Below, piece by piece: positions 1-60,500 of a DNA stretch of 64,000 nucleotides. The translations under genes were made by a program, and so were the position numbers. The notes under the pieces are model-generated. The model was given only the letters and a program-made list of their open reading frames with translations. It searched no databases and was not told where the DNA came from. This DNA is from a virus (taxonomy: Duplodnaviria; Caudoviricetes): the IMG/VR virus record IMGVR_UViG_3300026077_000001; one strand, 5' to 3'. Each line of letters opens with the position of its first letter. Position 1 is the stretch's first letter.

Positions 1-1
1 A

Positions 2-4488: not shown

Positions 4489-4496
4489 TATAAATA
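4489..4496 (+). promoter_or_regulatory. T4-type late promoter TATAAATA
   Basis: Exact T4 late consensus 27 nt upstream of the ATG at 4523. Confidence 0.7.
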
Positions 4497-4522
4497 GATT
4501 TGAGGAAAACTAAACAGGTAAA

Positions 4523-5332: not shown

Positions 5333-5857
5333 ATGAAGAAAGCATTAATGGATTTCAATGGATACGTGGCAGACGTAGTGGATCCTGGTGAAGAATATAC
5401 ATTATTCTTAGGTCGTGGATGTGCTCAGATGTGGGTGAATGCACCTGATGATGTATCAATCACTTGGACACTAGAATGGTCACCATCTGCCAATGATATG
5501 ATATGGGTTAAGCGTGTAGATACATATGCTGATCCTGCTACAACTCGTAGAGTTGCATATGGTGAGGTAGGTCAGCAATTAGATATGCTATACAAAGACA
5601 TCGCAGCAGGTAAAGATCTAGCAGCATCGGATGCTTTGTGGTATAATCACGTTAAGACAGTTAAAGAGAATACTCAAAGACCATCTGACGTAGAGGAACC
5701 AATGGATCCAGCTATGACAGAGGAAGAGATTCAAGAGTTTATGTCTGATATGGTTGAGCCATCAACGACAAGACCTGCTAAACTGTGTTCACAAGACAAT
5801 CCCTGTTGGGAGCGTTATTCAAATTGGGGTGGTTCTTACGTAGAAGCACCTGTATAA
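5333..5857 (+). CDS. Tail-fibre assembly/chaperone-like protein
   Basis: The R..AY..V.QQLDMLYKDI...W...VK.VK motif is seen after fibre genes in marine phages. Confidence 0.5.
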   Translation: MKKALMDFNGYVADVVDPGEEYTLFLGRGCAQMWVNAPDDVSITWTLEWSPSANDMIWVKRVDTYADPATTRRVAYGEVGQQLDMLYKDIAAGKDLAASDALWYNHVKTVKENTQRPSDVEEPMDPAMTEEEIQEFMSDMVEPSTTRPAKLCSQDNPCWERYSNWGGSYVEAPV

Positions 5858-5863
5858 AATATT

Positions 5864-34067: not shown

Positions 34068-34475
34068 ATGGCGTATAGGTTTAAAGCAGAAAGGAACTTG
34101 TCGAGGCAGTTCCGTGACCTCAGTATAGGGATGAAAAACAACCCCAATACTGAGGATTTTTCTGTGGTTAAAAATGAGAACGCTATTAAGCAATCCATCA
34201 AAAACCTGATCCTGACTGGGTTTGGAGAGAGACCTTTCCAACCAACTAAAGGATCACGGTTACGTCAGATGCTCTTTGAAAATTTCGATGTCTTTATGGC
34301 TGAGGAATTAAAAGAAGAAATATTTAACGTATGTTCACGATTTGAACCACGTGTTGTTATTAATGAAGTTAGATTAGAGGTAGCTGATACCAATGATCTC
34401 GAAGTTGAGGTTGATTACACTATTATCGGTGAAACTCTTACCCAAACTGTAGACTTCTTGTTGGAGAAAACATAA
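34068..34475 (+). CDS. gp25: Baseplate wedge subunit gp25
   Basis: AIKQSIKNLILTGFGERPFQP..GS.L...LFE...FEPRV. Confidence 0.93.
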   Translation: MAYRFKAERNLSRQFRDLSIGMKNNPNTEDFSVVKNENAIKQSIKNLILTGFGERPFQPTKGSRLRQMLFENFDVFMAEELKEEIFNVCSRFEPRVVINEVRLEVADTNDLEVEVDYTIIGETLTQTVDFLLEKT

Positions 34476-39500: not shown

Positions 39501-42500
39501 AGCACGGTCTTCTTGTTGGTGACACTGTTACTATCTACGGTGCAAACCCAACTGTGTTCAACGGTACGTTCCTAGTAACATCACGTATTAGTGATTTTAT
39601 CTTTGAGTATAACATTCCTGCACCTGCAGATGCTTCACCTCAAGGTAATATCCTCTTATCTGTTGACTTGAACAAAGGTAAGTCTCCAGAAGAGGGAATT
39701 AGTATTGCAATTAGAGATTTTACTACAAACGTACAGAATACATTCTTCAACAATACGTATGCTTACATAGCATCTTCTGGTATTCCTAACTATGAGGTTG
39801 GTCCTTTTGTTGGATCTGCACTACTTCCAGGTAACCAGCGTAAGTTAATCCGTATTCCTAGAGTTATCAATACGATTTCCAAACGTGATGATACCAACTT
39901 TGGTCCTATTGGTGCGTGGGTTAATGGTGTATCTGCGTGGTCATATAAGTCAGAAACCAAGATTAAGTATGGTGGTGTAATTGGAATTAATATTACTAAT
40001 GTTGGACAGGGATATGATGCAGCGAATCCTCCTATTATTGAAATTAGTGGAGGAAATGGTACAGGTGCTACTGCTAGTGTTGTTGTTAACGGACAATTAA
40101 GTGAAATTGATGTTTCTGCGGGGGGTACTGGTTACACTTCTAGTCCTCTTGTTTCTATCGTGGGTGGTGGTGGATTCGGTGCAACTGCTACTGCTGTTAT
40201 TACTAATGGTATAGTTTCTAAGATTCTTGTTGAAAACCCAGGTCAAGGATACACTTCTCAACCTGATGTCTCTATTTCAGGTGGAAATGGTACAGGTGCT
40301 ACCGCAACTGCACGTGTAAGAGGTCCAATTCAATCTGTAAGTGTAGATAATGCAGGTTCATCTTATACTGAATCTCCTACTATTAAGTTAAACTCTGGTG
40401 AAGGTGCTGTTGCACAAGCAATCATTATTAACGGTCGTATAGTTTCTATTGCTATCATTGCTGCAGGTAAGGGATATACCACTGCTCCTGAGATTGTAAT
40501 CAATGGTGATGGTTATGGTGCTGTTGCAAAAGCAAGTATTGGTACTGTTGGTGAAGATAGAGGTAAGGTCATTGGTGTTACTGTGGTCAATAGAGGTATT
40601 GGTTACACTACTGGACTCACAACTGTTAGATTAGAAGCAGTCGGTGAAATGGCAACATTTACTGCAAATGTGTTTGAGTGGACAAGAAACCTACAAGATG
40701 AGTTAGGTCAATCTTTCGATACAGCACGTGGTTACGTATTTGCAGGATATAACACTCAATATGGTGGTGAATACGCACATTTATCAGATCCTAAGCAGTT
40801 GCGTTATGTTTTGGGTGATAATGTCTTTAAGAACCAAGCAACACAACAATTACAAGAATTATCTACAGGATGGCAACACTCACCAATCCTCGGATGGGCA
40901 TTTGATGGTAACCCCATTTATGGTCCTTATGGTTACATAGATGCTACTGACCAGTCTTCTGGTATACGTCGTATTAGATCTTCTTACCGTATCAAGCCAA
41001 TTCTAATATATGACCTAGCAACCAACCCTAATCCAGTTCGTTCAGATGGTCCTTTACTAAGTGACTATCCTGCAGGTTCATTTATCGAAGATTTTGAGTA
41101 TACTTTCCAATATGGTGATCTAGACCAGTATAATGGTCGTTTCTGTAAGACACCTCAATTCCCTGAAGGTGTATACGCATACTTTATCTCAATTGACGCA
41201 TCTGATGCAGGTAATCCAGTATTCCCATATATTGCTGGTCCTCAGTTATATTCTAAGGCAGATGAGTGGAACTACAGTCAGGATGCTGTACAGACAAATA
41301 TTCCTGATGATGTTGTTCGTTTCCGTGATCCTTACGAAGATGTTGATATTGATATTGAACGTCAACCAAACCAAGACACTGATATCCTTGTAACTGAACT
41401 TGGTGAGGAACTTATCTTTGAAATTGAAGATACTAATAGAGACGGTGTAATCAATAACCTTGAAGATACTACACCAATCAATATCGCTGAAGAACCAGTA
41501 TTACAATTATTTGATTACTACCCTAGAGTCTCTACAAGATCTGAGGTGGATATTGATATTGAGACTACTACCAAGTTTGAGGATGCTCAGGTTGATGGAT
41601 TTGTTGTTGAGAACCCAGGTATCTCTTATAAGGTTGGTGACAAACTATATTTTGATAATACAGACACACAAGGATTTGGTGCATCTGCTAAGGTTAATTC
41701 AGTTAAAGGTCTTGATGTAGCAGGTTATTCGTCTTATATGACTAATGACGTACCTTACGGACAAATTACAACTGCTACTGAACACGAATTACGTGCTAAC
41801 GATGAAATTATCGTTAAGAGCACACCTGTTCTTGATGATACTAATAAAACTCTTAAAGTTAAGGTTATTGCTGGTGTAGAGCAATTAAACATTACACAGG
41901 AAGGTGTTGGTTATTCTTCTGAACTTCCTCCAACATATGAACTAATTTCTACAATTGGACAAGATTTCAAGTTAACTTTAGAAAGAACTGAAGCGGGTGC
42001 TGTTAAGAAAGCAAATATAATCAACTCTGGTTCTGGATATGACTCAACAAATCCACCTAAGATTCGTGTATCACATCCACAGAGATATAAGAAGGCAAAT
42101 TACTTCTTATCATTCTTGAATGAAGCAACTGGTACTGTTTCTATAAATGACGTTCAAGTTGCTGATGATCGTACTATCTACGTTGCTGCTGAAAGAAATC
42201 TTGCTGATGGTGATACTTGTGGTATTCTTGCTAAGTTTAATAGTGATGGTCGTTTACTTTGGCAGAGAACCCTAGTACCTACAGTACCTTCTGGTCCAAA
42301 ATCACTAAGATGGAAGTCTTTATATGTTGAGAATAGTAATCCTCATAATATCTACGTAATTGGTGAGACAGTTACTAACATCACAAATATTACTTACAAC
42401 CCAGATATTGTTGTTGCTAAGTATACTTCAGGATTTGATAATGCAAATAACCCTGATGGTATTCTTCAGTGGCAACGTGATATTGCTGGTATCTCTGGTG

Positions 42501-45500
42501 CTACAAGAAGAGATTATGCAACTACTATTTCATTAGATCAAGACGGTAGAACTATGATCGGTGGTTATACCGATGCTAACTCCTTGCAACCAGATGATAT
42601 GTGGGTTGCATTATTAGATCTTGATGGATCTATGATGGAGAAACGTAAGATTGCTTCTACTGATGTTAGTGAGCATTTACATCAGATAAAGTGGAAATCT
42701 AAGGATACCTTCCTATTCTGTGGTGTATCTGAACCTGATAATACATCTGACATCATAATTGGTGAAACTTATTATGATACTGCAACTATTGAGGTTGTAT
42801 GGTCTAAAAAAATCACTAATGCCAGTTATAAGTTTAAGAACCCAACATTCACCATTGATGAATATGGTGCTGTATATGTAACTGCTACAGCAGAAGATAC
42901 TAATGGTAAGGATTATGGTGTTTTATACACCAAGTTTGATGATGGTGACTTTACAGCAGCTGAGCAAAGTAGAATATTTGTTCCTACTGGAACCTATAAT
43001 GCTGTTCATAATGGTGGTGTAGAGTTTGATATCTTTGGTAATGTTGATGTATCTTGTTCTGTAGAAAGAGCATTTAATCAAGTTGAATCCACTACTCTTA
43101 AGATTGGTTGGAATACAGGTACAGTAATTACTGCTTCAACTGCAACTGAGACTGATGGTATTGGATTTAAAGCAATTGCTGTATCTAACGACAGTTCTGG
43201 TGACACAATTGTTGTTGGTAATAAGGTAGAAGCAGATCAGTTAGCGATATTTAACTGGAATACTGCTGATAACCTTGCTGATGACACATATAATGATACT
43301 CTTGCTACTGGAACTAACAAACAGTGGTATGCAACTGGTAATGCTGTAATTGATGATACTAAGAAGTATGATGGTGCTTCTTCAGTAAAACTAGATGCAT
43401 CTAATGCTATGACGATGCTCTATGGATCAGATGTTGCTACAAGCTATACTGTAGAAGCATTTTGGGCACTTTCAACTGCTCAGTATACTGCTGCTAACAC
43501 AAAACCAGAATTCTTCACTGTAACTGATGCTATAGGTAATACAGTTAAAGCTGGTCTTGATGCAGATCAGACAAGTCCCAACTATGGTAAGACTTGGATT
43601 GATATAACTGGTACTACAACATTCTCCACTGCTGCAAACTACCTAGCAATCTTTAATAACGAGGAGTTTATTCACGTTGCTTTAGTTAAAGATCGTGTAG
43701 GTGTTGGTGATTACAAGTATCGTGTATATGTTAATGGTATTGAAACACAGGTACTTACAAGTACAACAGTTGATATTAACCTTAAAGATGTAACAATTGG
43801 ATCTAATTCAACTCCTAACGCAACAAATAACTGGATTGGATGGATTGATAACCTAGTTGTCTCACCTACTGCTAAGTATGATGATACATTTACTTCTGCT
43901 TTAGTTACTGGTACTAATAGTATTGCACAAGGATTTGTTTATAAGATTGATAAGGACAAGACAGCATTAGGATCATTCAATCTTAACGATGTTGAGACAG
44001 GACATACCTTTAATATCGCCTCTGAGAGCAATTATACGTTTAATACCCAGAACGTTGCAATGAATCCTTGGACTATTGGTCCTGCTGGTATTCAAATTCT
44101 TGATTATGGTGATGTTATTTCTACACATCAGCCTGGTATATTCACTGTATCGTCAACAGATCAGTCATTTGGTAACAGAACTGCTACTATTCCGACTCCT
44201 GGTGGTAAGAAACTACTTCTTACAACGACTGTTGTACCAAAATTCTACTTTAGAGACGCAAAATATCAGTTAATTGACCTTGTTAAGACAATTAACTTCA
44301 ATCAGGCTGCTACTTTCACTAAGGGATCTATATTACAACAGTATTCAGTCATTGGTGGTAACGATGTTGTCTCTGGATATGGAACAATTGTTGAAGTTGG
44401 AACTCAATCTTGCAAGATTGGTAAGATTGCAGGTAGTTTTGACACTACAAAACTAGTAAAATCAACTGCTAATGATGTAAATGACCTTGAATGGAACTTT
44501 ACAGAGCAAAAGACTGACCCAATTTGGGCAACTAACTTTGTATATGCACAAGAAGACATAGTTTACAACGATAAGAAGCTATATCAGTGTACCTCTCCTG
44601 GTACATCTGGTACTATTGCACCTACTCATACAACTGGTATTGTATCTGATGGTGCTGTTTCTTGGGCATATTTGTCTGCATCTGGCATATATGAGGTAGA
44701 TTTAGCAAATACTTCATATAGTGGTTCTACTTTAGGTGCATTTGCTTCTTGGAAAGAATTCTCAGCTGAGGATTACACTATCAAGATCGAAGAAATATAT
44801 CAAGACTCTTCATTCATTAAAGGAGATACCATTGATGCCGATGCTGTTAATCTTCAGTTTGCTGTTGATGCTACTGGTAAGATTGCAACATTCACTGGTT
44901 TGACTGGTGTTAAGAAGATATCCTTGATTGCACAACTTAATAAGGACGTAATTCCTAGTGGTTCATTAGTAAATACTGACCTTGTTTACTGTTCTGCTTC
45001 TAGTAGACACAATTTTGTAGAAAATGAGATCATATTTACAGAGAACTTTGCTACAAATGACTATAATGGTTCGTTCTTCGTAGAAGAGGTCTTTAACTCA
45101 AGAGACTTCTCATTCCGTATGAGAGGTACTGCTGTACAGGATCCAACCTTTGCTGGTAGTGGAAATTCAGTATCTAACGTTAATATCTACGCAAAACATC
45201 CTAAATTCCTCTTTGTTAGAGGTCATCAGTACATATTTGACCTTGATGATGAATCTAACCTTGGATACTTCCTATCATTTTCTAGAGATAACCAGTATAA
45301 ACTGGAATATCCATTCATTAATATTATTAGAGAGGGTACACCTGGATTTACTGATGATGATTCACCAACTCCGTTGGTTAAATTCGTCATTAATGAGGAT
45401 GTTACTAATATTTCATATTACTTTGACCCATCTAGAACAGGTGCAGATTCACCAGTTGGAGAAGGATCCTTCATTGACGTTATTAAATCTCCTTATGATG

Positions 45501-48500
45501 GCACATTCAGAGTTACTTCTGTAACCGATGCTGGTAAAAAATTCGCCTTTAGACTATTAAATGAACCTGAAAAGACAAATGCTCCTGTTGGTAATAATGA
45601 ATTTGGCAATGCTCGTTCTTCTTACTCAACAACCTCAGTTAAGGCAATTGGTCCAATATCTGATATCAAACTTGTAAATGCAGGTGGATTCTATCAGAGA
45701 CTACCAATTGTTACTGATATTGCTTCTAACAGAGAAATTGAGAAGGTTAGAATCACAAATGGTGGTACTGAGTACGTAAATGGTGTTTACTATAACGTTC
45801 CTATTGATGGAGATGGTGAAGGTGCTATGTGCAACATCACTGTTCAAGATGACGGTGACTTTGAAGGTGTTATAACTGATGTTGTCCTTACATCTGCAGG
45901 TAAAGGTTATAAGACTGCTTCTATTGATGTAGATGCTATACCAGGTATCCTAGGACCTTTACTTGCAGGTTCTGGTGCAGTACTAGATGTTGTCATTCCT
46001 GATGAAGGATCAGGTGCATCTGTATTCTTACAAGGTAAATCAATTGGTAAGATCAAGAAACTTAAGAATAATGAGTTTGGTTTCGGTTATTCACACGATT
46101 ATACACTGAGACCTGAAATAACTTTCCCTGTGAACCTTCAGCTGTTTAATACCGCTTTACTCGCACAGATCAAGATAACTGACCCAGGTGCTGGATATAC
46201 TTCAGTTCCTGCTGTTGTAATTGAAGGTGGTGGTGGATCAGGTGCTAAGGCAGAAGCAATTGTTAAGAATAATCGTCTTTCTGAGGTTATTATTAAGGAT
46301 CCTGGCTCAGGATACAGTTCTGAACCTTCAGTTACACTTAAATCAGAATTTAACTACGTTGTTAACGTTGATTTAGGTTATTTACAGTTCAACTTCCCAC
46401 ACGGTATCACAACTGGTGCTGAAGTTCAGTTAAGAGCAGAAGACCTAGGATCAACCGTAGGTATTCTTCCAAAACCTAGTTCTGCAGGTTTGGTTAGCTT
46501 GAACTCAAATCAGACATACTATGCTATTGCTGGTGAAGCAAATTCACTTGAATCAGACCAATTACGTATCTCTCTAACCAAGTTAGATGCTGAATCTGGT
46601 TCTTATATCACATTCTTGACTCAAGGTGAAGGTAGACAGGTACTACTCACCGAGGTATTTGGTGGTAAAGCAACTGCTATCGTTGAAACTTCTAGATTCC
46701 TTGCAGGTGAACTTGTTTATCAGGGTACTTCACTTGAACTCGCATCTGCTACTGGTTATGTTTCTACTAACGAAGGTTGGCAGATTGGACCTAGAATCCT
46801 TAAACTTGAGAACTATGATGGTGTTTGGAGATCTGGAGAGCGTGTAACTGGTGAAGTTTCTCGTGCATCTGGTTTGATTGATAACCTATCAATCGCTACT
46901 GGTACACTGAATATTGCTTCTCTAACCAATACTCCTGGTCAATTTATCGATGACGTTGGTAAACCATCTGAAATTGTTCAAAAAATACAAGATTCTTACT
47001 TCTATCAGAACTTCTCATACGTTATTAAGTCTCAAACACCTATTAACCAGTGGAGAAAGCCTGTATTAGAAACAAACCACCCTGTTGGTTTCAACCTCTT
47101 CGGTGAACTAGCAATCACTGGTGGTAAGGATATTTCTGGAAGAAAGGTTGTATCTGACCTTATTAAAGAAGTTAATATCAATAGTTTCACTAATATTAAT
47201 CAAATTACATCATTTGCTAACGCACAACCCATTTATACTCAGTTTAATAATACTGAGGTACTGTTCAGACAGAAGAGATTAACTAACTCAGAGGAAATCT
47301 TAACCTCTATCGTTAAGAAGATTGATAACATCTCTGATGACTTTGATGGAATTAAAACCCAATTCCCTCTTAATGTAGAAGGTAGTTCCATAACTGCAGC
47401 AGATAATCAGATGTTTATCTTGATTAATGGTGTTGCACAGTCACCAGGTACTGCATTCTCAACAGCTGGACCTTCTGTTGTCTTTACTGAAGCACCTAAA
47501 GCACCTTCTAGAATTAAGTTCCGTGAAGCAGTTTATGCTCAGAAAGTAATCACTAGAATGACATTCAGTTCTATTGGTGGTATTTTCCCACTTTTAGGTA
47601 ATACTGTTCGTGGTTTGGTATCAGAAGCAACTGCAACTTGCATAGATTCAGGTGTTGACTATATTGACGTTATTGACATACAAGGAACCTTCCAACTTAA
47701 TGAAAGTATAATGGGTTCACAAACTGGATTCAATTCTACTTTAAGTGATGTTTCTCCTATAACTTCTAAGACTATCTACGAACAAGGTGAGAGAATCACT
47801 AATTTGGCTGGTAATTTTGCTATTATTGAAGAGAATAACTTACAAGATGGTGTTATTACTAATGAACTAGTTCTTTCACGTACTTCTGGTACTGCTAAGT
47901 ATGAGACTGGTGAATTTAATATCAAGTTCAATGATATCATTTATTCTGCACGTTCTAAGATTGCAGCAACTATTACAAGTATTGCACCTTATCAGGATGA
48001 TATATCTAACCAAATTATTGATCAGGTAGACCTATCACCTAGTTCTTCCTTCTTTGGATTAGTATTCCAGAGGGTACCTTCTATTACCTTCCCTAATAAG
48101 ATACTTGATAACATATCAGAAACAGTTATTAACCCTGTTGAACTATATGATCCTGAGACAGCTAATAACCAAGACTTCCTAGACTTTGAGAGAGTTCGTA
48201 ACCAAGAGATACGTTATGACAATTTAACTGGTACTGACTTTGCTGCTGGTTCTGACATTCGTCTTAAGAAGATTTACTTTGGTAATTCATCTCTAAGAAG
48301 GACTCACGATGTACGTCTTAATGATGCTTCTAACGCTTTGCAGCGTAATGCGAGATTTATCGCTGAAGAAGCCGTGGGAGCAATGTTAGATTTCTACCCC
48401 TCCTTCCAAATCAATACTGGTAGAAATGCAGATTGTGAAGATGATATTGTAGATGCTATCAATATGATGGCTTGGCAGTTAGAGTTTGATGGTAACTCTG

Positions 48501-51500
48501 AAGTTTGGGATATTGCTAATACTTACGTTCAAGGTAACACTGTATATCACGTTGATGGTGCTGAAGCTCAAACAGTTTGGGCAATGAATAAAGCACGAGA
48601 CTTAGCACTCCAGTGCATAAGAATGGAGGATATTGATACTTCATTTACTACATTACAGCAGTGGAGAGACTTAACTGTTACTGGTGAGTATAGTGTAACT
48701 GATAATAGTCACGCTGATGCTAGAGCACTATTACTTGCTAACAAGTGGTATATCGCTCACGAAGCATTGTATTATGCTAAACAACAGAATCCTGGTTATA
48801 CAGTATCTGGTGGTGACTCACATTGCTTGTCAGATATAGTTGATGTTGTTGAAGCAATTGCATATAACACTGCTGTTGGTGGTAATGACTTTGTTTGGGA
48901 AGCAACAGATCGTATTCTTCATTATGGTACTGTAACTGGTGATATCGATACTATGGTAGATGCCTTTACTAAGGCAAGAGATATAGCAATTAATGTTCAG
49001 AGGAACGTTGTATATGCCAAGCAAGATACTTCACACGGTTGGACACAATTTACTGATAGTGGTATTACTGCTGATGGTGCATCTCCTGCTTGTCAGGCAC
49101 CTGCTGCAACAATAACCACCCTAGCGAATATTCTGATTAATGCCCTAGGTACTACTGCATCACCTGGAACTAGAGCAGCATTCCAAGCTGGAACAACGAA
49201 GACTGAACCATCTACTGCTTTGATGGCAAATCCTTCTACAACTGCTTGTGTAAACGTAACATCTGCTATTACTAATTACTTTGCAATTATCACTGATTCA
49301 TTACAGGATCCAACTGGTGCTGCACCTGGAACTTATCCTTGGTCTATTTCAAATGTAACTAGAGTTGCACCTCCATATTCATTCAGTGATTCTGAGACAC
49401 TTAAGTCTATTAAGCACGCTTATAAAGATAAGTCTTCTGGTGGATTCTTTGTCTTCGGTGAAATTGTTAAAGGTATAACATCTGGATCTACTGCTGAGAT
49501 CATTGGTTCTAATGCAGGTAATAAGTGGATCTATAGTAAACAACCTTCAGGAGCATTCAATGATGGAGAATACATTACTAATAGTCTTTTAGTTAATACT
49601 AACGTAACTGTAGATAATTTAGATTATGCTGCTGGTGCTGGATCTCTTGAATTTAATGGTAGTGCATATCTAACACATCCATCTACTGAGAAAGTTGCAT
49701 TTGGTGATGGATCTATTCCTGATGGTAACTTCACTATAGAATTATGGGTTAAAGCAACAGGTGTTAGTGGTAACCAAACATTATTAGATTTCCGTACTTC
49801 AACTGGTGATACAAGTTCTGCTTACTTGATTATGGTCAATAACACTGTTCGTTGGAACACTGGTAATGTTGACAGAATAACATCAAGTGCAAATCTAGCA
49901 GCAAATACTTGGACTCATATCGCTATCGTAAGAAATAGTGGTGCTACAAATATGTACGTTGGTGGTACTAAGCAAACCACAACTTATACTGATAACACCA
50001 ATTATGGCAATATGCCAGTTAAGATTGGTGCTAATGCTGCTAATGCTCAAGCATTTACAGGTAATATGGAGAACCTAATGATTAAGTTAGGTTCTACTGC
50101 TGTTGATTATACTAGCGACTTTACTCCTAGTGGAACTTATGATGATACAGATATAAATCTTAAGTTTGGATTTAATGGTGAAGCACCTATTCCTATTATT
50201 AAGGGTGAAATTTATGCTACATTCCAACAAACTATAACTTCTACTGCTACTGCTGAGGGTGTAGAACTATGGCGTGATGAGATTATGACTGAGGGAGTTG
50301 ATCTTTCTCGTGATGATTATGTTGATTGTGCAGATATTATTGACAAGAACAAGTACTGGATTGCTGAAGAAGCAGTCGGTAGAATGAAGGCTATGTATCC
50401 TGACTTTGTGATACCTGGTGATACTGGTACTTCAGATCAAGGTACACAAACTTGCTTAAGAGATACTTATGAATACATTATACCTGCTATCGTTAATGAT
50501 CTAAGGTATGGTGGTAACTTTAATAGTATCGTTGCTGCAAGAGGATATCTTGCTAACCAAGAAGGACAATTAGCACACGTTAACGGAGAATTGCTTCAAT
50601 CCATCTATGCTTGGAGAGAAGTTGGTAAACTTTGCAATACTGTTATTACTGCTAATGCTGATGACCTAACTGGTGAGCATACAACACGTATTCGTATTCC
50701 TAACTACTTCTCATCTCCTGCAGCTGCTGGTATACAGACCTTTATTACTGATCTAGTAGATAGTTTACTATTAGTTCTTGGTCCTACAGGTAATAGATTT
50801 AGAGATGGTGCTGATTTACTATACTTCAACCGTAAGTGTATCGCTGATGAAGTTGCTTTCTGGTTAGAAGAACAGTATAACGTAACTATTAACTTCATTC
50901 AGGAAGATAAGTTTGACATTCCTGGTGGTACTCCAGGTCGTGATAAGTGTGTTCGTGACCTTAGAGATCATATTATACCTGCTATTGCTGGTGACTTATT
51001 AACTGGTGGTAATGCTAACGTTCAAGGTATTATTGATCAATACTTAGATTCTACAGGTAAGATCATTCAAGTTGAAGAAGAATTACTTCCAATGCTTGAT
51101 GCAATTGGTTACTCTAAGATGTTGATGGAGAAGGCACTACAGAATGCTTTAGTTGGACGTAGTGAAAACCTTGCAAATCTTGCTGGTACAACTGCTCAAA
51201 CTATTGACGACTTCTTCCAATTCCAATATACAGATTTCGCTGCATTCCGTAAGGATCAGGCAACTGAACCTACCTTCTTACACGATCCTCAAATCTATGC
51301 AGGTTCTCAGAGAGCATTAGATGCTGCTGATATGCTTGAAACTAATAAGCGTGCTATTGCAGGTGAAGCAGTTGATCTTATGCTTAAGTGTTCTGCATTT
51401 AAACATTATCACTTCAGTGTTAAAGGTGGTAAGAATCATTGTGAAGATGATATTGTTGACGTTATCGAAGCTATCATTCACGACCTTAGATTCAATTCTA

Positions 51501-54500
51501 ACTCTGCAACTTATGATGCAGCGATGTTATATCTGAATACTGAGAATGGACTGAAGCACGTTACTGATGAGACTGAAGAAACTGCCTTTGCTATGAAGAT
51601 GGCTAGGGATATGTCTGCTTTGGCGATCCAGAACAAGTTAGGGTTTAATCCCTACCCTGATTATTCTGCAGGTGGTGGAGCTGGTGGCGGTCAAGGTGGC
51701 GGTGGCGGCTTCGGTGGAGGTGGCGGTGGTCAAGGTGGTAACCAAGGTGGCGGTGGTGCAGCACGTGGTGATTATGATAATAATGAGTCTGGTAATAAGG
51801 CATATAACGCTGCTGATGAAATTAGAAATAACTTAAGATTTATTGCTTCTACTGCTGTTGGTCGTGGTGTTTCTCAGTACCCATCATTAGGATTTGGTGG
51901 ATATGGTTATCAGTCTTGTGTTGATGATTGTGTTGATATTTTAGAAGCATTGATATTCAACTTATCACACGGTGGTAATAACAAGATGTGGTATGCCACT
52001 GAGTTCTATGTTACTGATGCTAATGCTGTTCAGCATATCAATGGTCAACCAAATGAAGTTAAGTATGTATTTGAACAAGCAAGAGATATTGCTATTCAAG
52101 TAATGAGACAACAGTTAGTTGCTACTAATGGTTATACAGAAGGTGATCCAGTATATGATGATGAAATTACTATCGATCAACAAACTGCATCTGGTCAACA
52201 TACTCCAACAGCAGCAACTTATGATCCTGCAACTGGTGATTTAGTTTTAACTTTAGGTGCATCACACAATGTAACTACTAACGATACAATTAGAATTAAT
52301 ACAAATTCACTTGTATTCACTTGTGATCAAGATGATCATCAGACTCAACATACTTATCCAAGAATTTCCGACCCAGCAGCTGTTGCTTTACTACCCGTCA
52401 CGAACGTAAGTGGTAACGATATTACAGTCAATGTTGGTATAACAGAGAGAGTTAACTTTGATGCTAAAGATTCTACTTATGATCCTGAAACAGGTCTATT
52501 AACTCTTGATATTGGATCTCATAGTTTAAGAGAAGGTCAAACACTTAAGATTCTTCAGGATGAATTAAATTATCGTTGTTCTCAGGATAATTATAGATCT
52601 ATTCATAAGTATCCTCGTGCTACTGATCCAGCAGTTGATAAAGCATTAGATATCGTTTCAGTTGGAACAACTCACCATACAGCAACTTGGGCAGACTTCA
52701 ACCCTGTTACTGGTATGTTGAATGTTACCGTTCCTAATCACGGATTTAAGAATGGTGACAAGATTAGACTTGCTAACGATTCTATGACATTCACTTGTGA
52801 TATGGATGAGCATTACAGCAAGAAAACATATCCAAGACTGTCTGATCCTGCTAGTGGACGTTTCCTACCAATCTCAAACGTAACTAAGAATACTTTTGGG
52901 ATGAGTATTGGTAAGACTCCTATCAAATACTTCACACCATCTCAAGCAAACTATGATCCTGAAACAGGTGGTTTAGAACTCATACTTGGTGTACACGGTT
53001 TAACAACTGGTACTCATATTAAGTTAGCACCTAACTCCTTAACATTTACTTGTAAGGAAGATGATGATGCTACCTTCCACACATATCCAAGAGCTCAAAC
53101 AACTACTGTTACTCCATCTGATGCTTCTTACAATCCTGTTAATGGTCACTTAACTGTTACTGTTGCTAACCACGGATTCAAAGTTGGTGAAATGGTTCAC
53201 GTTGAGAAGAACGGAATTGTGATGACTTGTGATATGGACGGAAATGCTTCTGAGCATCCATATCCAAGACAAGATGACCCTGCAAACAATTCTTGGATGA
53301 GAATTGAAGCAGTATCTACAAATACATTTACCTTTAAAGTTGGTGAATCACCTAAAGTAAGTTTCACACCAACAGCAGTGGATTACACCCCTACTACTGG
53401 TGATATGAAGATGACCATTGGTAATCATAGTCTTACTGCAGGAACTGCACTTAAGATTGCTGAAGGTGGTATTACATTTACTTGTGCACAAGATAGTCAT
53501 CAAACTCTTCACCCTTATCCTAGAAATACAACTTATACAGTATCTGACATTAATAACGGTTCTTATGATCCTGAAACAGGAATAATGACCGTTACAACTG
53601 CTGCTAATCACGGTCTTCAGGATGGTGATAAAGTTAAGTTTGCTGATGGTGCTATTACATTTACTTGTTCTATGGACGGTAATGGTTCTAACCATCCATA
53701 TCCAAGATCAACTGACCCTGCATCTGGTAAGTGGTTAGAGATTGATGTAACTGGTAATACAACATTTACTGTTAATGTTGGTAAGACTCCTACTGTTGGA
53801 TTTGCTCCAACAATGGTTGATTACAATCCAACAACAGGTTTAATGACATTGACCATTGGACAGGGACATAATTTATCTGTTGGTCAATCTGTAAGGTTCT
53901 CTCAGAATTCACTTACATTCAAATGTGCCTTTGATAATTATGCTACTGATCACTCATATCCTCGTGCTTCAGGTCAAGGTGGTGCTACTCAAGATGACCC
54001 ATTCTATGATACTGCTTGTGCAATTACTCAGACTACAGCAGACACAATTACAGTTCAAGTTCTAAGTTCACAACCATCTACTAACACAACTGCTCATACT
54101 TGGCAGGCTCCTACTAAGTTAACTCCAACTGGAGCATCATATAACCCATCAACAGGTGTTATGTCTCTTACTGTTACTGGACACGGTATGGTAAATGGAG
54201 ATCATATTAAAGTTGATGATAATTTTGTAACCTTTACTTGTGGTCAAGATAGTGATCAAACTAATCACTCATATCCAAGACCAAAAGATCCTGTATCTAA
54301 TAAGTTTATTCCTATCACATACATTGATGCTAATACCTTTAGTATTCAAGTTCTAGAGAATGTACCTTCAACCAATACTACAACTCACAACTTTGTAAGT
54401 GCTGTTGCTAATAGTATTGAGAGATGTGTTGTAAGAGCTGGTGGTATTTACACACACGCTTATGTTTCTTCAACTGCTGGTTCTCTAACTGCTAAGAAAG

Positions 54501-57500
54501 ACCAAACATACGATTCATCAGTTAACATTAAGTACGAAGGTACTCCAATGACTGCTGCAAGTGGTACTACTTACAGTGGAACTACAGGTATTCTTGAGGT
54601 AACAACATCTGCTAATCACGGATTAGTTGTTGGAGATTATGTTAAGTTAAGAGATGGTGCAGTAACCTTTACTTGCTTAGAAGATAGTAATTCTTCTAAC
54701 CATCCTTATCCAAGAGCAACTGATCCAATTAGTGATAAGTGGATTAGAGTTATGACTGTTCCAAATGCAACTACATTTAGTGTACAAGTATTAGATGCTA
54801 TTCCATCTTCAAATACTACAACTCACACATTTGTTTCTGGTCTATCTAACGGAATTATTAAAAAGGATGATACTATTACAGTTAATGTTGGTATCTCTTC
54901 TAATACAACTGCTCATATCTTTAAGGAAGCAGTACCTGCTTGTATAACAACAGGTGGTAACTACACTCACACATTCGTTCGTGCTGAAACTAATTGTATT
55001 ATTAAGTCTAAAGACCCTGTATATGGTAACTCTTTAGAAATTACAGGTACAACTGCTACTTCTATTACTCTAAACGTTTTACCAGTTGTTCCATCTACTA
55101 ACGTAACTCAGCATACATTTATATCTGCCACAAATAATTGTGTAACTACTGGTGGTAATTACAGTCATAAGTTTATTTCTGCTGAGAAGGATGGTGTAGA
55201 ACTAGAATCTGGTTCTGTTACTGTTAACGTTGGTACAACACCTGCTGTATTCTATAGCGTTGGTGATGCTAATTATGATGGCGAAACTGGCGATATGATG
55301 ATTAAGGTTGGTGCTCATAAGTTAATCGATGGTACTACTATTAAGATTGCAGATGAAGCATTAACATTCACCTGTGATATGGATAGTCACGCTTCAGAGC
55401 ACGTTTATCCACGTCTAACTGACCCTGCTAGAAACACTGCTTTAAAAATAAAAGAGTCAAGTTCTAACTCTCATACTATTACTGGTGCAACTTATACTCC
55501 TACAAGTGGTGTATTAACTGCAACTATTAATAATCACGGATTCCAGTCTAAGCGTACAATATCTCCAACCTTTGCTAAGTTCGATCCAGCAACAGGTGAT
55601 TTGGAAGTTTATTCTGCAGACAACAGACTTGCTGTTGGTGATAGTGTAATGATCGATGATGGTGCTATTACATTCAGATGTTCTAAAGACCAATACAGTT
55701 CAACTCACCCATATCCAAGATCAACTGACCCTGCATCAGGAACTTACTTAATAGTTAAGAAAGCATCTAGAAATAGATTCACAGTTAATGTTGGATCAAA
55801 TGCTTTAGGTGGTGCTATCTCTGATCAGAGTATTCACGTATTCGAAGCATCTAATGGTAATAGTATTCACGTTGCTCCTACTTTAGTTAAGTTTGATCTT
55901 AATTCAATTACATTCAATTGTACTAAGGATAGCAACGCTACTAACCACACATATCCAAGAGCAGATGATCCAGAAGCAGGACATTGGTTAGAAGTTCTAT
56001 CAACACCTGATGCCAATACATTCACCTGTAATGTTGGTATTGCTGGTGGTGGTAACTTTGCCCATACATTTGTTGGTGCTACTGCTGGTGGATTAAAAGA
56101 ACAGACTGGATGGGTTACTGTTAACGTTGGTGCTACTCCTTCAACTGGACATACAGTTTCTACTGCTAACTTCAACGCAATTACAGGTACAATGGTACTT
56201 GGTATAGGTAACCATTACTTTAACAAGCACGACAATATTAGAATTTCACCTGATTCATTAACATTTACTTGTGGATTAGATAGCAACCAGACAAATCATA
56301 CTTATCCAAGAGCAAATACTGTAGTAACTCAACCAACAGCAGCATCATATGATCCTGAAACTGGATATATGCTTCTAACATTGAACAACCACGGATACTC
56401 TAATGGAGACTTCGTTAAGTTTGAGTTAAATGCATTTACATTTACTTGCACAATGGATAACAATGGTTCAAGCCACACATATCCACGTGCTACTGATCCT
56501 ACTTACGGTAAGTGGTTACCAGTAGAGGATGTACAAGCAAATACATTTAAAGTTCAAGTTGGTAAAACACCAACTACAGGATTTGAACCTATCTCTGTAA
56601 GTTACAACCCAACTTCAGGTGTTATGGAGATGGAGATTGGTGAGCACGAATTTACTACTAATCATAAGATTCGTATCGCTGCTAACTCATTAAACTTCAG
56701 ATGTGCTCAGGATAATTATCAAACAGATCACTTATATCCACGTATCGGAGATCCTACTTATCAGTCATCTGTTCCTATTATTGCAACAACACCTACTACA
56801 ATTTCTGTACAGGTTCTTGCTTCACAACCTTCTACAAACACTACAACTCATCAGTTTGTACAGCAAGTAGGTAAGACACCAACTGATATTAATTACAATC
56901 CTATTACAGGTGTTATGACTGTGACTATTGCTAATCACGGTTATAACGATGGTGATATGATCAAGATCGCTGAGAACTCACTCACATTCACTTGTGATAA
57001 AGATAGTCACGCTAGTGATCACGTTTATCCAAGAAGAACAGATCCATTCTGGGATAAGTGGATGGTAATTGATACTGTTACTCAGGATACCTTCAATGTT
57101 AAGGTTCTTGAGACTGCACCTTCTACAAATACTTCAACACATATCTTTAAGTCTTGTACTGCTAATTGCATAACAAGATCTGCAATCAGAGGTGGTGGTA
57201 TTTACACACATACCAATACTGGAATTGCTTCTGGAGGTATGATCCATAAGAAGGATCCATTCTATCAGCGTGGAATTAACATTGATCAAGTTGGATACAC
57301 TACTCATACTGTAACCAATGCTAAGTATAACCCCAATACTGGTGTGATGAATCTCACCATACCGAATCACGGGTTTACTACCTCTCTCCAAAAGACAGTA
57401 ACTGGTGCTACTTACGATGTAACAACCAGTATGTTAAGGATAACAAGTGCTGCTCACGGAATGAAGAATGGTGACAGAGTAAGAATTGCTGATAATTCTA

Positions 57501-60500
57501 TTACATTCACTTGTGCTCAAGATGGTAATGCTACAAACCATTCTTATCCAAGACCAAGTGATCCTGCATCTCAACGTTTCTTAGTTGTTACTAACGCAAG
57601 TACCAATACATTTGAAGTTAACGTTGGTAATTTCTTCGGTAGAGGTCCAATTTCTAACCAGACTGCTCATACATTTGTATCTGCAACTACTGGTGGACTT
57701 GAAGTTGCAAGAGATAGTATTAAGATGGCTGAAAATTCCATCACATTTACTTGTGCTAGAGATGATAATGAAACACTTCACTCATATCCAAGAGAAAATG
57801 ATCCTTCATATGATGAGTATCTACCAATTTCTAATGTAGGTACAAACGATTTTGATGTATATGTAGGACACGCTAACCTTGATAAGACAGTTCATCAGTT
57901 TGTATCTGCTACTTCTAATGGTATTCATCATCTTGATGGAACAATTACAATCAACGTTGGTATTTCTTCTAACACTACAACTCATAACTTCGTCAATCAA
58001 CAGACAACTTGGACACCTAGCAGTGCTGCATACAACCCAACAACAGGTGTTATTACGTTAACTGTTAATAATCATAAGTTCTATGAAGGTGAGTACATTT
58101 ATCTTGCTGATAATGCAGTAACTTTCCGTTGTGATCAAGATGGTCAAGCATCTGACCACGCTTATCCACGTAGTACTGACCCTGCATCTGGAAGAATGCT
58201 TCGCATTTCTAACGTAACTACTAACACATTTGATGTGAAGGTATTAGATGTAACTCCTTCTACAAACACTACAACTCACGTATTCCAGTCTGCTGCTGCT
58301 AATTCAATCACCAAACCTCAAGTACTTGGTGGTGGAGTTTATGAGCACAAGTATGTAAGTTCTAAGGGAATGGCAGTACGTAGTGGTGGACTTTATACAC
58401 ACGTATTTGAAGGACCAACTAAGAAGACAGTAACTAATGCTTCATACTTACCTGCTACAGGTATTATGACAGTTACAGTTCCTGATCACGGATGGAGTAA
58501 TGGTGATGGAATTATCCTTGATGATTATTCATTAGTCTTTACTTGCTTAGAAGATAGTAACAATACTGAGCACCCATATCCACGTCCAACTGATCCATTC
58601 AGTAATAGAGTTATGACGATTTCTAACGTCACAACTGACACATTTACTGTACAGGTTCTAGCATCTGCTCCTTCTACTAACACTACAACTCATACATTTG
58701 TGAGTGCTACTACTCACGGAATTAGAAGAGCAGCAGTACACACTGGTGGTGCTTATGCTCATACCTTCATTAGTTCTCAGAGTAATGCTGTTACCTCATT
58801 TACAGGTGGTGGTGCTGCACGTTGTAGCAATGAAGCATCTGCTATTACTACATTGATGAATATTCCTATCAATCTGTTTGGTTCTGGTGTTAGTAATCCT
58901 GATGCATACATTGGTGGTATTACAAGAACTCTACCAGGCGAATGGCCACTAACAGGTGAACGTGCTGCAATTCGTGATTTAACAATCACTTATGACTCTG
59001 CTGGTAATGGTGAGTGTGCTGTTGTTGGATCTCAAATAATGCAGTTATTTAATTATCCAATTAATGTTATTGACACTGCTGCTCAAGGTAATGGTAATTG
59101 GTTTACTAATCAATCTGTCTTTAGACAGGCTCCACTTCAAAATAATACATTACAATCTGGTGGTGGTATTTGTTATAACGTAGTATCTGCTTCTAATACA
59201 TTAGCAGATATGATTAATATGACACTTGGTCGTGCACCTGAAATGTATCGTCAGGCAGCAAGATTGATATGGTTCAATGATCAGTATATTGATCGTGAAT
59301 CATATTACAAGACTATGCAAAATTATGGTGGATATACAGGAGACGAATCATTCGCAACTAATATCCGTAAAGCATTGATATATGACTTAATTACTGATGG
59401 TAATATCAAAACTCTCGAATTAGTTAACAGTTGGTTTGATGCCGAGGGTAACTTCATAGCGTTCCCTAATATCTTCAGAACATATCTGTTGTATCATACT
59501 GCTGCTGTTAAAGATATGACACTTAAAGTTCTTCAACAAAAAGCAGATAATCCTGGTCCTTATAACCAAGAGGTACCATATGAGAATCGAGAACTACGTC
59601 CTACTGAAACAGCACAACATAAGGTTTGGCAGTTATTCCACTTAATTGAAGTTGCACTTGAGAGATCAACTCTACCTACAGCTTACCTTAAGTTCCAATT
59701 TAATGTTGGAACTATGGTTAATACTGATGGTTCTATTGATGCTCCTAATGGACATTTATTCCAAGCATATGATCGTGTTACTTACACAGTTCTAGGTTCT
59801 GCTATTGCTGAACTAGACAGGCAAGTATATTTCATTCACCCAGATACTACTGAAAATCTAATATGGATTTCAGAATACATTGATGGTGATAAGATTGAAT
59901 TATTATCTCCAGGAACAGCAGGTCAAGTTCATACATTATCTGTAGTTGATGAGACTGGTATACATCGTACTCCATCAACATTTGGTGAGCGTAATGTACC
60001 AACACCTATTTCTGGTGGTATACAACCTGCAGATATATTCTTCGGTGATACTACTGGTGCATATGCTGAAGTTATTAGAATACAAGATAACTGGGCTAAG
60101 GTTCTTTATAATGTCATTTACTTACCACTTACAGTTACTAGCGATCCTGAAGTATTTGTTAATGGTGAGGAAGTTGTTAAGACTGGTGCTACAGGAAATA
60201 AAGGAACCATCCTTGCAACAGATAATTCTACTTACATTAAGTTAGTTCTTACTGGTGGTAACATTGTACAAGGAGATAATATTGAAGGATTAACATCTGG
60301 TGCTCAAGGTACTGTTAGTGATGCTACCCATAAGCGTATATTAGTTAACTTTAGAATGGGTGAATTTATTGCAACTGATCTATTATTCAGTAAGCAAGAT
60401 TCTGGTAGAGCAAATGCACTTATCGTACGTAATAATGATGGTGCTCTACTTGATAACCAGTCAGGTCGTGTAACATTTGATATTGAGACTGTTACTGGTA

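What the first reader, a model, noticed from the sequence alone, without database searches (positions are those of the whole stretch)
52190..58795. Recursively nested (Russian-doll) protein repeats: 21 modules inserted inside one another in bracket-matched order
Seen: a full module reads Y[DN]P.TG - HG - F.C..D.....H.YPR - DP..L.I - F.V.V - H.F. Many modules break off part-way (after YPR, after L.I, after V.VG or after HG) and a new module starts. The missing parts reappear later in last-in-first-out order. Module 4 stops at YPRAQ and resumes about 630 aa later as KSKDPVYGNSLEI..ITLNV..QHTF. Module 6 resumes as KKDQTYDSSVNI and again as DTITVNVG..AHIF. Module 2 resumes as GSVTVNVG and module 14 as KKDPFYQRGINI. 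Module 1 closes only at the far end (GGAYAHTF). I count 21 Cys/YPR cores and exactly 21 closing H.[FYWN] strands. Inference: the protein folds as a branched tree of domains generated by repeated in-frame insertion into loops, not as beads on a string. I know of no description of this architecture.
Basis: partly seen in the sequence, partly recalled or inferred. Interest (0 to 1): 0.9.

Follow-up and report, generated by a model that had tools for sequence, protein, structure and literature searches.

The report
Nested beta-barrel tree in cyanophage baseplate protein
A giant (8,596-residue) baseplate protein of a marine cyanophage carries 21 copies of a small beta-barrel domain inserted inside one another up to eight deep, deeper than the six levels a 2026 survey of domain insertions reports as its most complex case.

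Summary

**Location.** The stretch is residues 5206-7400 of one 8,596-aa ORF (window 36587-62377, +). The ORF sits in the gp7 (baseplate wedge) position of a T4-like cyanomyovirus.

**Sequence evidence.**
- 37 fragments tile the region without gaps.
- Joined last-in-first-out, they give 21 full-length ~100-aa modules: 9 contiguous and 12 split into 2-3 pieces. Maximum depth is 8.
- None of 10^6 shuffles gives a valid nest.
- Breaks fall in four loops only.

**Structure prediction.**
- AlphaFold2 on a five-module subtree gives pLDDT 91.6.
- Split module 7 superposes on solved E1 FCCH beta-barrels (Z 8-9, 2.5 Å) at least as well as a contiguous module does (Z 7.1).
- Three-piece module 6 also forms one barrel.

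**Context.**
- The whole tree is itself inserted in a loop of a helical host domain.
- P-SSM4 gp7 has an 11-module, depth-5 tree in the same loop.
- Many metagenomic relatives carry split modules.

**Novelty.** Recursive self-insertion is already known from the Si3 region of cyanobacterial RNA polymerase (six levels). This is therefore a new and more extreme variant in a different fold, not a new principle.

**Function.** Its function, possibly an adhesin or decoration bush closed by a His/Cys/His site, is inferred only.

The parts
36587..62377 (+). Giant ORF, 8596 aa (P0001), in the gp7 position; giant virion/baseplate wedge protein
   Evidence: PHROG 701/2885 hits; follows the gp6-like gene 34475-36559 (phrog_219); P-SSM4 ortholog annotated gp7
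51809..52201 (+). N-terminal part of the helical host domain (aa 5075-5205); ends ...ITIDQQTASGQH
   Evidence: joined flanks align across the junction with an uninterrupted paralogous copy at aa 4040-4260; score 166 vs shuffled 33+-5
52202..58786 (+). Whole nested array: 21 modules in 37 fragments (aa 5206-7400). Tree: 1(2(3(4(5(6(7(8,9),10))))),11(12(13),14(15(16,17),18(19)),20)),21)
58787..59056 (+). C-terminal part of the helical host domain (aa 7401-7490); ...GGGAARCSNEASAITTLMNIPINLFG...
52202..52456 (+). Module 1, strands A-E (root of the tree)
   Evidence: HMM 1-78
58721..58786 (+). Module 1, closing strand (GGAYAHTF); starts 2,088 residues after the end of its first piece
52457..52672 (+). 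Module 2, A-D
   Evidence: HMM 4-71
55202..55252 (+). Module 2, strand E (GSVTVNVG)
58367..58426 (+). Module 2, closing strand (GGLYTHVF)
52673..52924 (+). Module 3, A-E
   Evidence: HMM 2-79
55139..55201 (+). Module 3, closing strand (GGNYSHKF)
52925..53098 (+). Module 4, A-C (stops at YPRAQ)
   Evidence: HMM 1-55; N-half of the complementation test
55001..55138 (+). Module 4, D-F (KSKDPVYGNSLEI...QHTF)
   Evidence: HMM 53-97; C-half
53099..53359 (+). Module 5, A-E
   Evidence: HMM 1-80
54935..55000 (+). Module 5, closing strand (GGNYTHTF)
53360..53530 (+). Module 6, A-C
   Evidence: HMM 1-55; in the AF2 model
54491..54547 (+). Module 6, strand D (KKDQTYDSSVNI)
   Evidence: beta-strand in the AF2 model
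54860..54934 (+). Module 6, E-F (DTITVNVG..AHIF)
   Evidence: HMM 70-95; single-barrel matches span model 1..521
53531..53797 (+). Module 7, A-E
   Evidence: HMM 5-80
54422..54490 (+). Module 7, closing strand (GGIYTHAY)
   Evidence: FCCH barrels align to model 59..381 over 78 residues, Z 8.5-9.0
53798..54112 (+). Module 8, contiguous
54113..54421 (+). Module 9, contiguous (modelled alone: pLDDT 97.3)
54548..54859 (+). Module 10, contiguous
55253..55477 (+). Module 11, A-D
   Evidence: HMM 4-75
56093..56146 (+). Module 11, strand E (GWVTVNVG)
58304..58366 (+). Module 11, closing strand (GGVYEHKY)
55478..55555 (+). Module 12, A-B (stops after HGF)
   Evidence: HMM 2-29
55874..56092 (+). Module 12, C-F; holds a contiguous VG..GGNFAHTF hairpin
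   Evidence: HMM 28-95
55556..55873 (+). Module 13, contiguous
56147..56317 (+). Module 14, A-C
   Evidence: HMM 2-55
57245..57307 (+). Module 14, strand D (KKDPFYQRGINI)
   Evidence: HMM 54-75
57929..58012 (+). Module 14, E-F
   Evidence: HMM 73-95
56318..56575 (+). Module 15, A-E
   Evidence: HMM 2-80
57167..57244 (+). Module 15, closing strand (GGIYTHTN)
   Evidence: DNA repeat D16 with the module 7 closing strand
56576..56872 (+). Module 16, contiguous
56873..57166 (+). Module 17, contiguous
57308..57388 (+). Module 18, A-B
   Evidence: HMM 2-25
57704..57928 (+). Module 18, C-F
   Evidence: HMM 26-97
57389..57703 (+). Module 19, contiguous
58013..58303 (+). Module 20, contiguous
58427..58720 (+). 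Module 21, contiguous
48704..49366 (+). Uninterrupted paralogous copy of the helical host module (aa 4040-4260); shows where the array was inserted

Best explanation
Residues 5206-7400 of the giant gp7-position baseplate protein form a single-rooted tree of 21 homologous ~100-residue six-stranded beta-barrels of the E1-FCCH / endosialidase-barrel type. Each barrel has adjacent N- and C-terminal strands, so it can be a guest in a loop. It also has four permissive loops, so it can be a host: after the HG turn, after YPR, after strand 4 and after strand 5. Twelve barrels are interrupted in 16 loops by 20 guest barrels, up to eight deep. Their pieces reunite in space in last-in-first-out order. 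The whole tree is itself an insertion in a loop of a helical domain, so the chain enters and leaves at one point. The flanking load-bearing parts of the baseplate protein therefore stay adjacent. The tree grew by insertions and by duplication of already nested blocks; [6(7(8,9)),10] and [14(15(16,17)),18(19)] are paralogous. Shown: the parse, its statistics, the family-wide loop hot spots, the predicted fold and the predicted reunion of split modules. Inferred: the tree is a surface-exposed decoration or adhesin bush at the baseplate, and the near-invariant His23/Cys42/His90 triad (a possible metal site) helps clamp the late-arriving closing strand.
For: 1) The parse is perfect: 37 fragments tile the region and make 21 full modules, with 0 of 10^6 shuffles valid. 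2) In 120 metagenomic relatives the break points cluster at HMM columns 23-28, 57, 73-77 and 84-86. 105 of 121 resumptions continue the top-of-stack module. 3) P-SSM4 gp7 parses by hand as a(b(c(d,e,f(g,h),i(j,k)))). Exactly three consecutive GG.Y.H.F closing strands appear where three modules are open. 4) AF2 of aa 5590-6120 gives pLDDT 91.6 and pTM 0.71 with no low-confidence stretch; all resumed pieces are strands. 5) VIA-align: about 30 solved E1 FCCH domains align to model range 59..381 (split module 7) over 75-79 residues at rmsd 2.3-2.8 Å, Z 8-9. Contiguous module 9 alone reaches Z 7.1 on the same targets. Module 6 (three pieces) matches single barrels across 25..504, 1..521 and 1..531. 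6) The two halves of module 4 were folded as separate chains. Verdict: weak support, ipSAE 0.32 against best control 0.00, with 158-180 cross contacts. The mark was reached by 58 of 80 solved complexes and 2 of 110 mismatched pairs; at a score of 0.60 or below, only 7 of those 80 solved complexes and both mismatches passed. 7) Direct-coupling analysis of 416 contiguous modules gives ladders b1-b5, b2-b4 and b3-b6. It places the N-terminal segment next to the closing strand (11-87, 9-90), so the termini are adjacent. 8) The joined flanks of the array align with an uninterrupted paralogous helical module: score 166 against shuffled 33+-5. 9) Block duplication: best partners are m7-m15 52%, m8-m16 52%, m14-m6 43%; DNA repeat D16 links the two closing strands.
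Against: All structural evidence is predicted, not measured. Only a five-module, depth-3 subtree was modelled; closure of modules 1-5, up to about 2,090 residues apart, is inferred from sequence alone. The complementation test gave only weak support. A coupling-energy test of LIFO pairing was underpowered (p about 0.06; not significant). The function has no direct evidence. DCA couplings between near-invariant columns such as C42-H90 are unreliable on their own.
Confidence: 0.88

Rival explanations
1. Domain-swapped linear chain: the modules are arranged as a string, and each incomplete barrel borrows its missing strand(s) from a neighbouring module. The late 'closing' pieces then complete whichever barrels are nearest in sequence.
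For: In RNA polymerase Si3 some recursively inserted domains do exchange secondary-structure elements (PMC11515920). I could not inspect coordinates of the AF2 model directly.
Against: The modules next to the closing strands (9, 10, 17, 20, 21) are already complete, so the strands would be surplus there and lacking elsewhere. In the AF2 model the closing strand of module 7 lies within the range that superposes on a contiguous FCCH barrel (59..381, 78 residues, 2.5 Å). HMM coordinates of the pieces are exactly complementary.
Confidence: 0.05
2. Intermolecular completion: the protein is part of an oligomeric (for example trimeric) fibre. The missing strands of a module are supplied in trans by other copies of the chain, as in intertwined phage fibres with His-metal sites.
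For: The same module occurs in cyanophage proteins annotated as tail fibre proteins. Baseplate and fibre proteins are usually oligomers (general knowledge). His residues are conserved.
Against: A monomer model folds with pLDDT 91.6 and all pieces placed. A single module alone gives pLDDT 97.3 as a globular barrel. Counts of open and closing pieces match exactly within one chain, in two phages.
Confidence: 0.04
3. Decayed tandem repeats: the partial modules are truncated remnants, and the short GG.Y.H.F / ITVNVG / KKDP pieces are independent mini-motifs that do not complement them.
For: Repeat arrays often contain truncated copies. The short pieces are weakly detected by HMMs.
Against: The pieces tile the region with nothing left over and rebuild 21 full modules. 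Valid nesting was never obtained by shuffling. Break points sit at four loop positions across 120 relatives. All pieces are confidently structured in AF2.
Confidence: 0.03

Closest known systems
Si3 insertion of cyanobacterial / plastid RNA polymerase beta' (recursively inserted SBHM/HABAS domains)
   Same: One small beta-domain family is inserted into copies of itself. Several domains are built from distant chain segments. The whole array sits in one loop of a host domain (the trigger loop), so the chain enters and leaves at one point. It was described as a six-level recursive architecture, the most complex case in a survey of 2.7 million domains (PMC10895346; PMC11515920; PMC13114784).
   Different: The fold differs: hybrid-motif/HABAS there, FCCH-like closed barrel here. 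Si3 has 8-10 domains and up to 6 levels; this array has 21 modules and 8 levels, or 9 counting the host. Si3 is part of a cellular enzyme; this is a phage virion protein. Here tree shape varies between related phages.
FCCH domain of ubiquitin-activating enzymes (Pfam PF16190) and FCCH-like decoration domains of siphophage tail tubes
   Same: Six-stranded closed beta-barrel. It is the best structural match: Z 8-9, rmsd 2.5 Å, 18-27% identity. FCCH is itself an inserted domain in E1 (my recollection, not tested here). In siphophage tail tubes it faces outward, as an alternative to Ig-like decoration domains (PMC13576161).
   Different: Single modules do not reach Pfam significance: 3 of 141 at E<0.01. 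The motifs Y.P.TG, F.C..D.....H.YPR and the closing H.F, and the His/Cys/His triad, are specific to the cyanophage family. No nesting of FCCH domains has been described.
Beta-barrel insertion domains of phage proteins (endosialidase K1F/phi92 barrel, P22 and CUS-3 coat I-domain)
   Same: Similar barrel: phi92 residues 257-340 Z 6.8-7.6; K1F 424-510 Z about 7; P22 I-domain Z 5.0. These are guest domains inserted in a host fold. From memory, the endosialidase barrel binds sialic acid.
   Different: They occur as single insertions, not self-nested. No sequence-level relationship: 1 of 141 modules hits PF12195.
gp7 'baseplate wedge initiator' of Prochlorococcus phage P-SSM4 (7312 aa) and other Kyanoviridae giant structural proteins
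   Same: An ortholog in the same gene position with the same module family. Its array sits in the same host loop and has a valid LIFO parse.
   Different: It has 11 modules, depth 5, with the root split after the HG turn instead of after strand 5. The public annotation does not mention the repeats or their nesting.

Membership tests
Recursive same-family domain insertion (architecture type of RNAP Si3) | Modules of one family are interrupted by modules of the same family, with bracket-matched order | tested here: met
   (0 of 10^6 shuffles valid); also in P-SSM4
Recursive same-family domain insertion (architecture type of RNAP Si3) | Separated pieces reunite into the same fold as contiguous copies | tested here: met
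   Predicted only. AF2; split module 7 matches FCCH at Z 8.5-9.0 against Z 7.1 for contiguous module 9; module 6 spans 1..521; weak support from the split-chain fold
Recursive same-family domain insertion (architecture type of RNAP Si3) | The whole array is an insertion in a loop of a host domain | tested here: met
   Flanks align with an uninterrupted paralog: score 166 against shuffled 33+-5
RNAP Si3 SBHM/HABAS domain family | Module has the sandwich-barrel hybrid / HABAS fold | tested here: not met
   Top structural matches are E1 FCCH, endosialidase barrel and FNR-type FAD-binding barrels. No RNAP or hybrid-motif domain appears among the 50 rows shown
E1_FCCH (Pfam PF16190) | Six-stranded closed beta-barrel superposable on FCCH | tested here: met
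   Z 7.1-9.0, rmsd 2.3-2.8 Å, 72-79 residues, 15-27% identity
E1_FCCH (Pfam PF16190) | A single module matches the Pfam HMM | tested here: not met
   3 of 141 modules at E<0.01, best 3.3e-4. The 2701-aa region sums to 36.1 bits (cut-off 29.5), but no single stretch passes
T4-type gp7 baseplate wedge protein | Gene position directly after gp6 in the baseplate module; hits to baseplate wedge families | tested here: met
   Upstream ORF matches phrog_219 at 3e-190; P0001 hits phrog_2885/708/438 'baseplate wedge subunit'; P-SSM4 ortholog annotated gp7
T4-type gp7 baseplate wedge protein | Sequence or fold similarity to T4 gp7 itself; presence in the virion | not tested
   No comparison with T4 gp7 was run. 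Virion presence rests on others' annotation
Beads-on-a-string decoration arrays (tandem Ig-like/FN3/BACON repeats of phage proteins) | Every module is contiguous in sequence | tested here: not met
   12 of 21 modules are split into 2-3 pieces
Structural metal site (His/Cys/His) | Conserved ligand set that is close in space and binds a metal | tested here: inconclusive
   H23 97%, C42 99%, H90 100% across 416 modules. The b3-b6 ladder puts C42 opposite H90. No coordinates or metal data

The most novel reading that the evidence does not exclude
This may be the deepest and largest self-nested protein architecture yet seen: 21 barrels, 8 levels, or 9 with the host domain. The published record in a 2.7-million-domain survey is 6 levels. 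The FCCH-like barrel would then be a 'self-hosting insertion domain' that lets cyanophages grow and prune a branched, metal-clamped adhesin bush at a fixed point of the baseplate. Tree shape would evolve between phages as a host-range or adsorption cassette. Outer barrels would stay unfinished until up to about 2,100 further residues have been translated, which would make this a natural model for last-in-first-out co-translational folding.
Probability: 0.3. Interest if true: 0.85.

Novelty: new variant of a known kind. Interest (0 to 1): 0.7.

Why it matters
- **Limits of domain insertion.** It extends the known limits from 6 levels and about 10 domains in RNA polymerase Si3 to 8-9 levels and 21 domains. 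It does so with a different fold and in a virus, so recursive self-insertion is a general route to very large proteins rather than a one-off.
- **Folding.** Up to seven barrels must wait, incomplete, for their last strand. Module 1 waits about 2,090 residues.
- **Phage biology.** It gives the first structural reading of about a quarter of the largest protein of abundant marine cyanomyoviruses. It points to a variable, probably surface-exposed appendage of the baseplate.
- **Annotation.** Linear domain parsers split or miss such modules. A grammar-type parser is needed for this family, which has about 700 representative proteins.

Tried and rejected
1) **Coupling-energy test.** I asked whether LIFO partners co-vary better than other pairings, using mean-field DCA trained on 416 contiguous modules. 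In the window's own protein the LIFO assignment ranked 298 of 5040 (p about 0.06). An automated version across relatives found too few pairs and was not significant (Stouffer Z 0.75). The test is underpowered and is not used as support.

2) **Automatic stack parse of relatives.** Using HMM hits alone, only 46% of resumptions matched, because short closing strands are invisible to the HMM. Ignoring strand-F-only closures gave 105 of 121. A sub-motif HMM tokeniser found 89 of 105 expected tokens, too incomplete for an automatic grammar.

3) **Split-chain fold of module 4 halves.** The verdict was only 'weak support': score 0.32 against best control 0.00. The mark was reached by 58 of 80 solved complexes and 2 of 110 mismatches; at 0.60 or below, only 7 of those 80 solved complexes and both mismatches passed.

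4) **Sequence searches of the PDB.** Single sequence and profile searches found nothing. NCBIfam found nothing. Foldseek against the PDB gave no hit below E 0.02.

5) **Own genome.** It is not held. The nearest record is a 34-kb fragment without the module.

6) **AF2 availability.** Only two jobs were allowed, so deeper subtrees (modules 1-5) were not modelled.

7) **Model coordinates.** They are not exposed, so His/Cys/His distances and explicit strand pairing could not be measured.

8) **SBHM/HABAS homology with Si3.** Considered and rejected on fold matches.

Full report
**Where it is.**
- The finding lies inside one uninterrupted ORF, window 36587..62377 on the + strand, 8,596 aa (P0001).
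- The window is from a T4-like cyanomyovirus. tblastn of the region hits 321 phage records, all Synechococcus/Prochlorococcus/marine cyanophages.
- The gene follows a gp6-like baseplate wedge gene (34475-36559; phrog_219, E 3e-190). It hits PHROG families called 'virion structural protein' and 'baseplate wedge subunit'.
- Its ortholog in Prochlorococcus phage P-SSM4 is the 7,312-aa 'gp7 baseplate wedge initiator'.
- No module copy occurs elsewhere in the window.

**The observation.**
- I built an HMM from eight contiguous modules only and scanned the protein. Besides full-length hits it gives partial hits whose model coordinates are complementary: 1-55 later followed by 53-97, 2-29 by 28-95, 2-25 by 26-97, and 1-55 by 70-95.
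- By hand, 37 fragments tile aa 5206-7400 (nt 52202-58786) with no gap or overlap. Joined last-in-first-out they make 21 modules that align over their full length.
- Nine modules are contiguous (8, 9, 10, 13, 16, 17, 19, 20, 21). Twelve are split into two or three pieces.
- The tree is 1(2(3(4(5(6(7(8,9),10))))),11(12(13),14(15(16,17),18(19)),20)),21).
- Sixteen loops are interrupted: 2 after the HG turn, 3 after YPR, 4 after strand 4 and 7 after strand 5. Together they hold 20 guests. Maximum depth is 8.
- A stack parser accepts the observed order. It accepts none of 10^6 shuffles of all fragments, and none of 10^6 shuffles of only the 16 resuming fragments.
- The region holds 21 YPR and 21 Cys cores, against one YPR in the rest of the protein.

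**It is a family trait.**
- A profile of the module finds only 703 of 1.84 billion representative proteins.
- In 120 metagenomic relatives the break points of partial hits cluster at model columns 23-28, 57, 73-77 and 84-86. These are the same four loops.
- 105 of 121 resumptions continue the module on top of the stack, and 80 of the 120 proteins have at least one split module.
- P-SSM4 gp7 parses by hand as a(b(c(d,e,f(g,h),i(j,k)))): 11 modules, 5 of them split, depth 5. Exactly three consecutive GG.Y.H.F strands appear at the point where three modules are still open.
- Tree shape therefore differs between phages.

**Fold and the test of nesting.**
- Direct-coupling analysis of 416 contiguous modules (Meff about 300) gives clean antiparallel ladders: strand 1 with 5, 2 with 4, 3 with its hairpin partner, and the closing strand 6 with strand 3.
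- It also places the N-terminal segment next to strand 6. The termini are therefore adjacent, which a guest domain needs.
- AlphaFold2 of contiguous module 9, with 141 aligned modules, gives pLDDT 97.3 and pTM 0.87.
- AlphaFold2 of aa 5590-6120, with 62 aligned relatives, gives pLDDT 91.6 and pTM 0.71. No stretch falls below 50, and every resumed piece is a beta-strand. This stretch holds module 6 in three pieces, module 7 in two, and modules 8, 9 and 10.
- Coordinates are not exposed, so I read the packing from structural alignments.
  - About 30 solved E1 FCCH domains (UBA1, UBA6, UBA7; 81 residues) align to model range 59..381 over 75-79 residues, at 2.3-2.8 Å and Z 8.0-9.0.
  - That range is module 7's first piece (60-148) plus its closing piece (357-379). 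The closing strand therefore sits where the last FCCH strand sits.
  - Contiguous module 9 reaches Z 7.1 on the same targets. A split module is thus at least as barrel-like as a contiguous one.
  - Module 6 is matched as one barrel by chains spanning 25..504, 1..521 and 1..531.
- The two halves of module 4, 634 residues apart, were folded as separate chains. They interdigitate with 158-180 contacts. The verdict is only weak support: ipSAE 0.32 against best control 0.00. The mark was reached by 58 of 80 solved complexes and 2 of 110 mismatches, but at 0.60 or below only 7 of those 80 solved complexes and both mismatches passed.

**What the module is.**
- The best fold matches are the E1 FCCH barrel and the beta-barrel of phage endosialidases (phi92, K1F). 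Next come FNR-type FAD-binding barrels and several phage tail and capsid insertion domains: N4 tail, lambda J and the P22 I-domain.
- At sequence level the link is faint. Only 3 of 141 modules hit PF16190 and 1 hits PF12195 at E<0.01. There are no PDB or NCBIfam sequence hits.
- I call it an FCCH-like barrel and do not file it as a Pfam member.
- In siphophage tail tubes, FCCH domains face outward and alternate with Ig-like decoration domains (PMC13576161).

**The tree is itself an insertion.**
- The sequence just before the array is ...ARDIAIQVMRQQ...DDEITIDQQTASGQH. The sequence just after is ...GGGAARCSNEASAITTLMNIPINLFG.
- Joined, these flanks align across the junction with an uninterrupted paralogous helical module at aa 4040-4260 (...ARDIAINVQRN...DSGITADGASPACQAPAATITTLANILINALG). 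The score is 166, against 33+-5 for shuffles.
- P-SSM4 has its array at the same place.
- The chain therefore leaves and re-enters a helical host domain at one loop. Counting the host, the nesting has nine levels.

**How it grew.**
- The best partners among the 21 modules are m7-m15 (52%), m8-m16 (52%), m14-m6 (43%) and m9-m17 (49%).
- A DNA repeat links the closing strands of m7 and m15 (D16, 76% identity).
- The whole block 6520-7142 aligns with 5590-6120 at 46% identity.
- A nested block was therefore duplicated as a unit and now sits in loops of two different hosts.
- DNA-level repeats are only 60-80% identical, so none of this is recent.

**How it most likely works (inferred).**
- A barrel with adjacent termini and four tolerant loops can be both guest and host, so the family can grow recursively.
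- The array has a single root in a host loop. It therefore adds about 240 kDa of domains at one point without lengthening or loading the chain path of the baseplate protein.
- Fold relatives suggest an exposed decoration or carbohydrate-adhesion role.
- His23 (97%), Cys42 (99%) and His90 (100%) are nearly invariant across 416 modules. The strand 3-strand 6 ladder puts Cys42 opposite His90.
- A metal or other Cys/His cluster that clamps the late closing strand is plausible but untested.

**Comparison with what is known.**
- Recursive insertion of one domain family into itself is documented for the Si3 insertion of cyanobacterial RNA polymerase. It has eight SBHM/HABAS domains, four of them built from distant segments (PMC10895346). 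[quoted passage not shown]
- A 2026 survey of 2.7 million classified domains cites it as a six-level nested structure, its example of greatest complexity (PMC13114784).
- The principle is therefore known. This case differs in fold, host (a virion protein), size (21 modules), depth (8-9) and variability between relatives.
- Searches of the paper library found no description of it in cyanophages.

**Verdict.** It is a new and more extreme variant of a known architectural principle. Structure-level claims rest on prediction for a five-module subtree, and function is inferred.

Noticed in passing
window 52202-58786 (all modules); model columns 23, 42, 90: His23 (97%), Cys42 (99%) and His90 (100%) are near-invariant across 416 modules from many phages. 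Asp45 (60%) and His51 (44%) are not. This is a possible metal or Cys/His cluster, and its ligands come from different fragments in split modules.
   Followed up: partly
window 54425-54463, 54941-54976, 55139-55174, 57155-57217: Re-entry linkers before closing strands carry an extra Cys in a recurring C[IV].T.GG.Y.H.F pattern (CVVRAGGIY, CITTGGNY, CVTTGGNY, CTANCITRSAIRGGGIY). This could be a neck disulfide or an extra ligand.
   Followed up: no
window ~48300-52201 and 58787-59056 (aa ~3905-5205, 7401-7490): At least four copies of a ~130-aa helical module with the core RFIAEEAVG...C.DDIVD..EA...GGN. One stretch (50318-50476) gives a weak Pfam Phycobilisome (PF00502) signal: E 3.7e-6, no single stretch passing. 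That is curious in a cyanophage baseplate protein.
   Followed up: partly
window 51671-51763: A 31-residue Gly-rich low-complexity linker (GGGAGGGQGGGGGFGGGGGGQGGNQGGGGAA) lies between two helical modules, just upstream of the host domain of the array.
   Followed up: no
window 40691-41197, 49685-50083, 62063-62176: Other recognisable domains of the giant protein: YHYH (PF14240, E 2.7e-29), Laminin_G_3 / concanavalin-like (E 4e-18), and a weak PKD-like Ig domain at the C-terminus.
   Followed up: no
window 36587-~40700 (aa ~300-1350) and aa ~3070-3200: Many short repeats with a GG.GY / G.GYT signature (e.g. KNGGSGY, SGGQGY, AGKGYT). This is a second, apparently tandem, repeat family in the same protein.
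   Followed up: no
L001 (P-SSM4 AY940168.2 57144-79082), locus aa 4001-5150: P-SSM4 gp7 carries an 11-module, depth-5 nested tree with three consecutive closing strands (aa 5013-5075). The public annotation says only 'baseplate wedge initiator'.
   Followed up: yes
window 62377-63999: The next ORF (541+ aa, runs off the window) shares YHYH-like and tail-fibre PHROG families with the giant protein (phrog_25852, 2576, 708).
   Followed up: no
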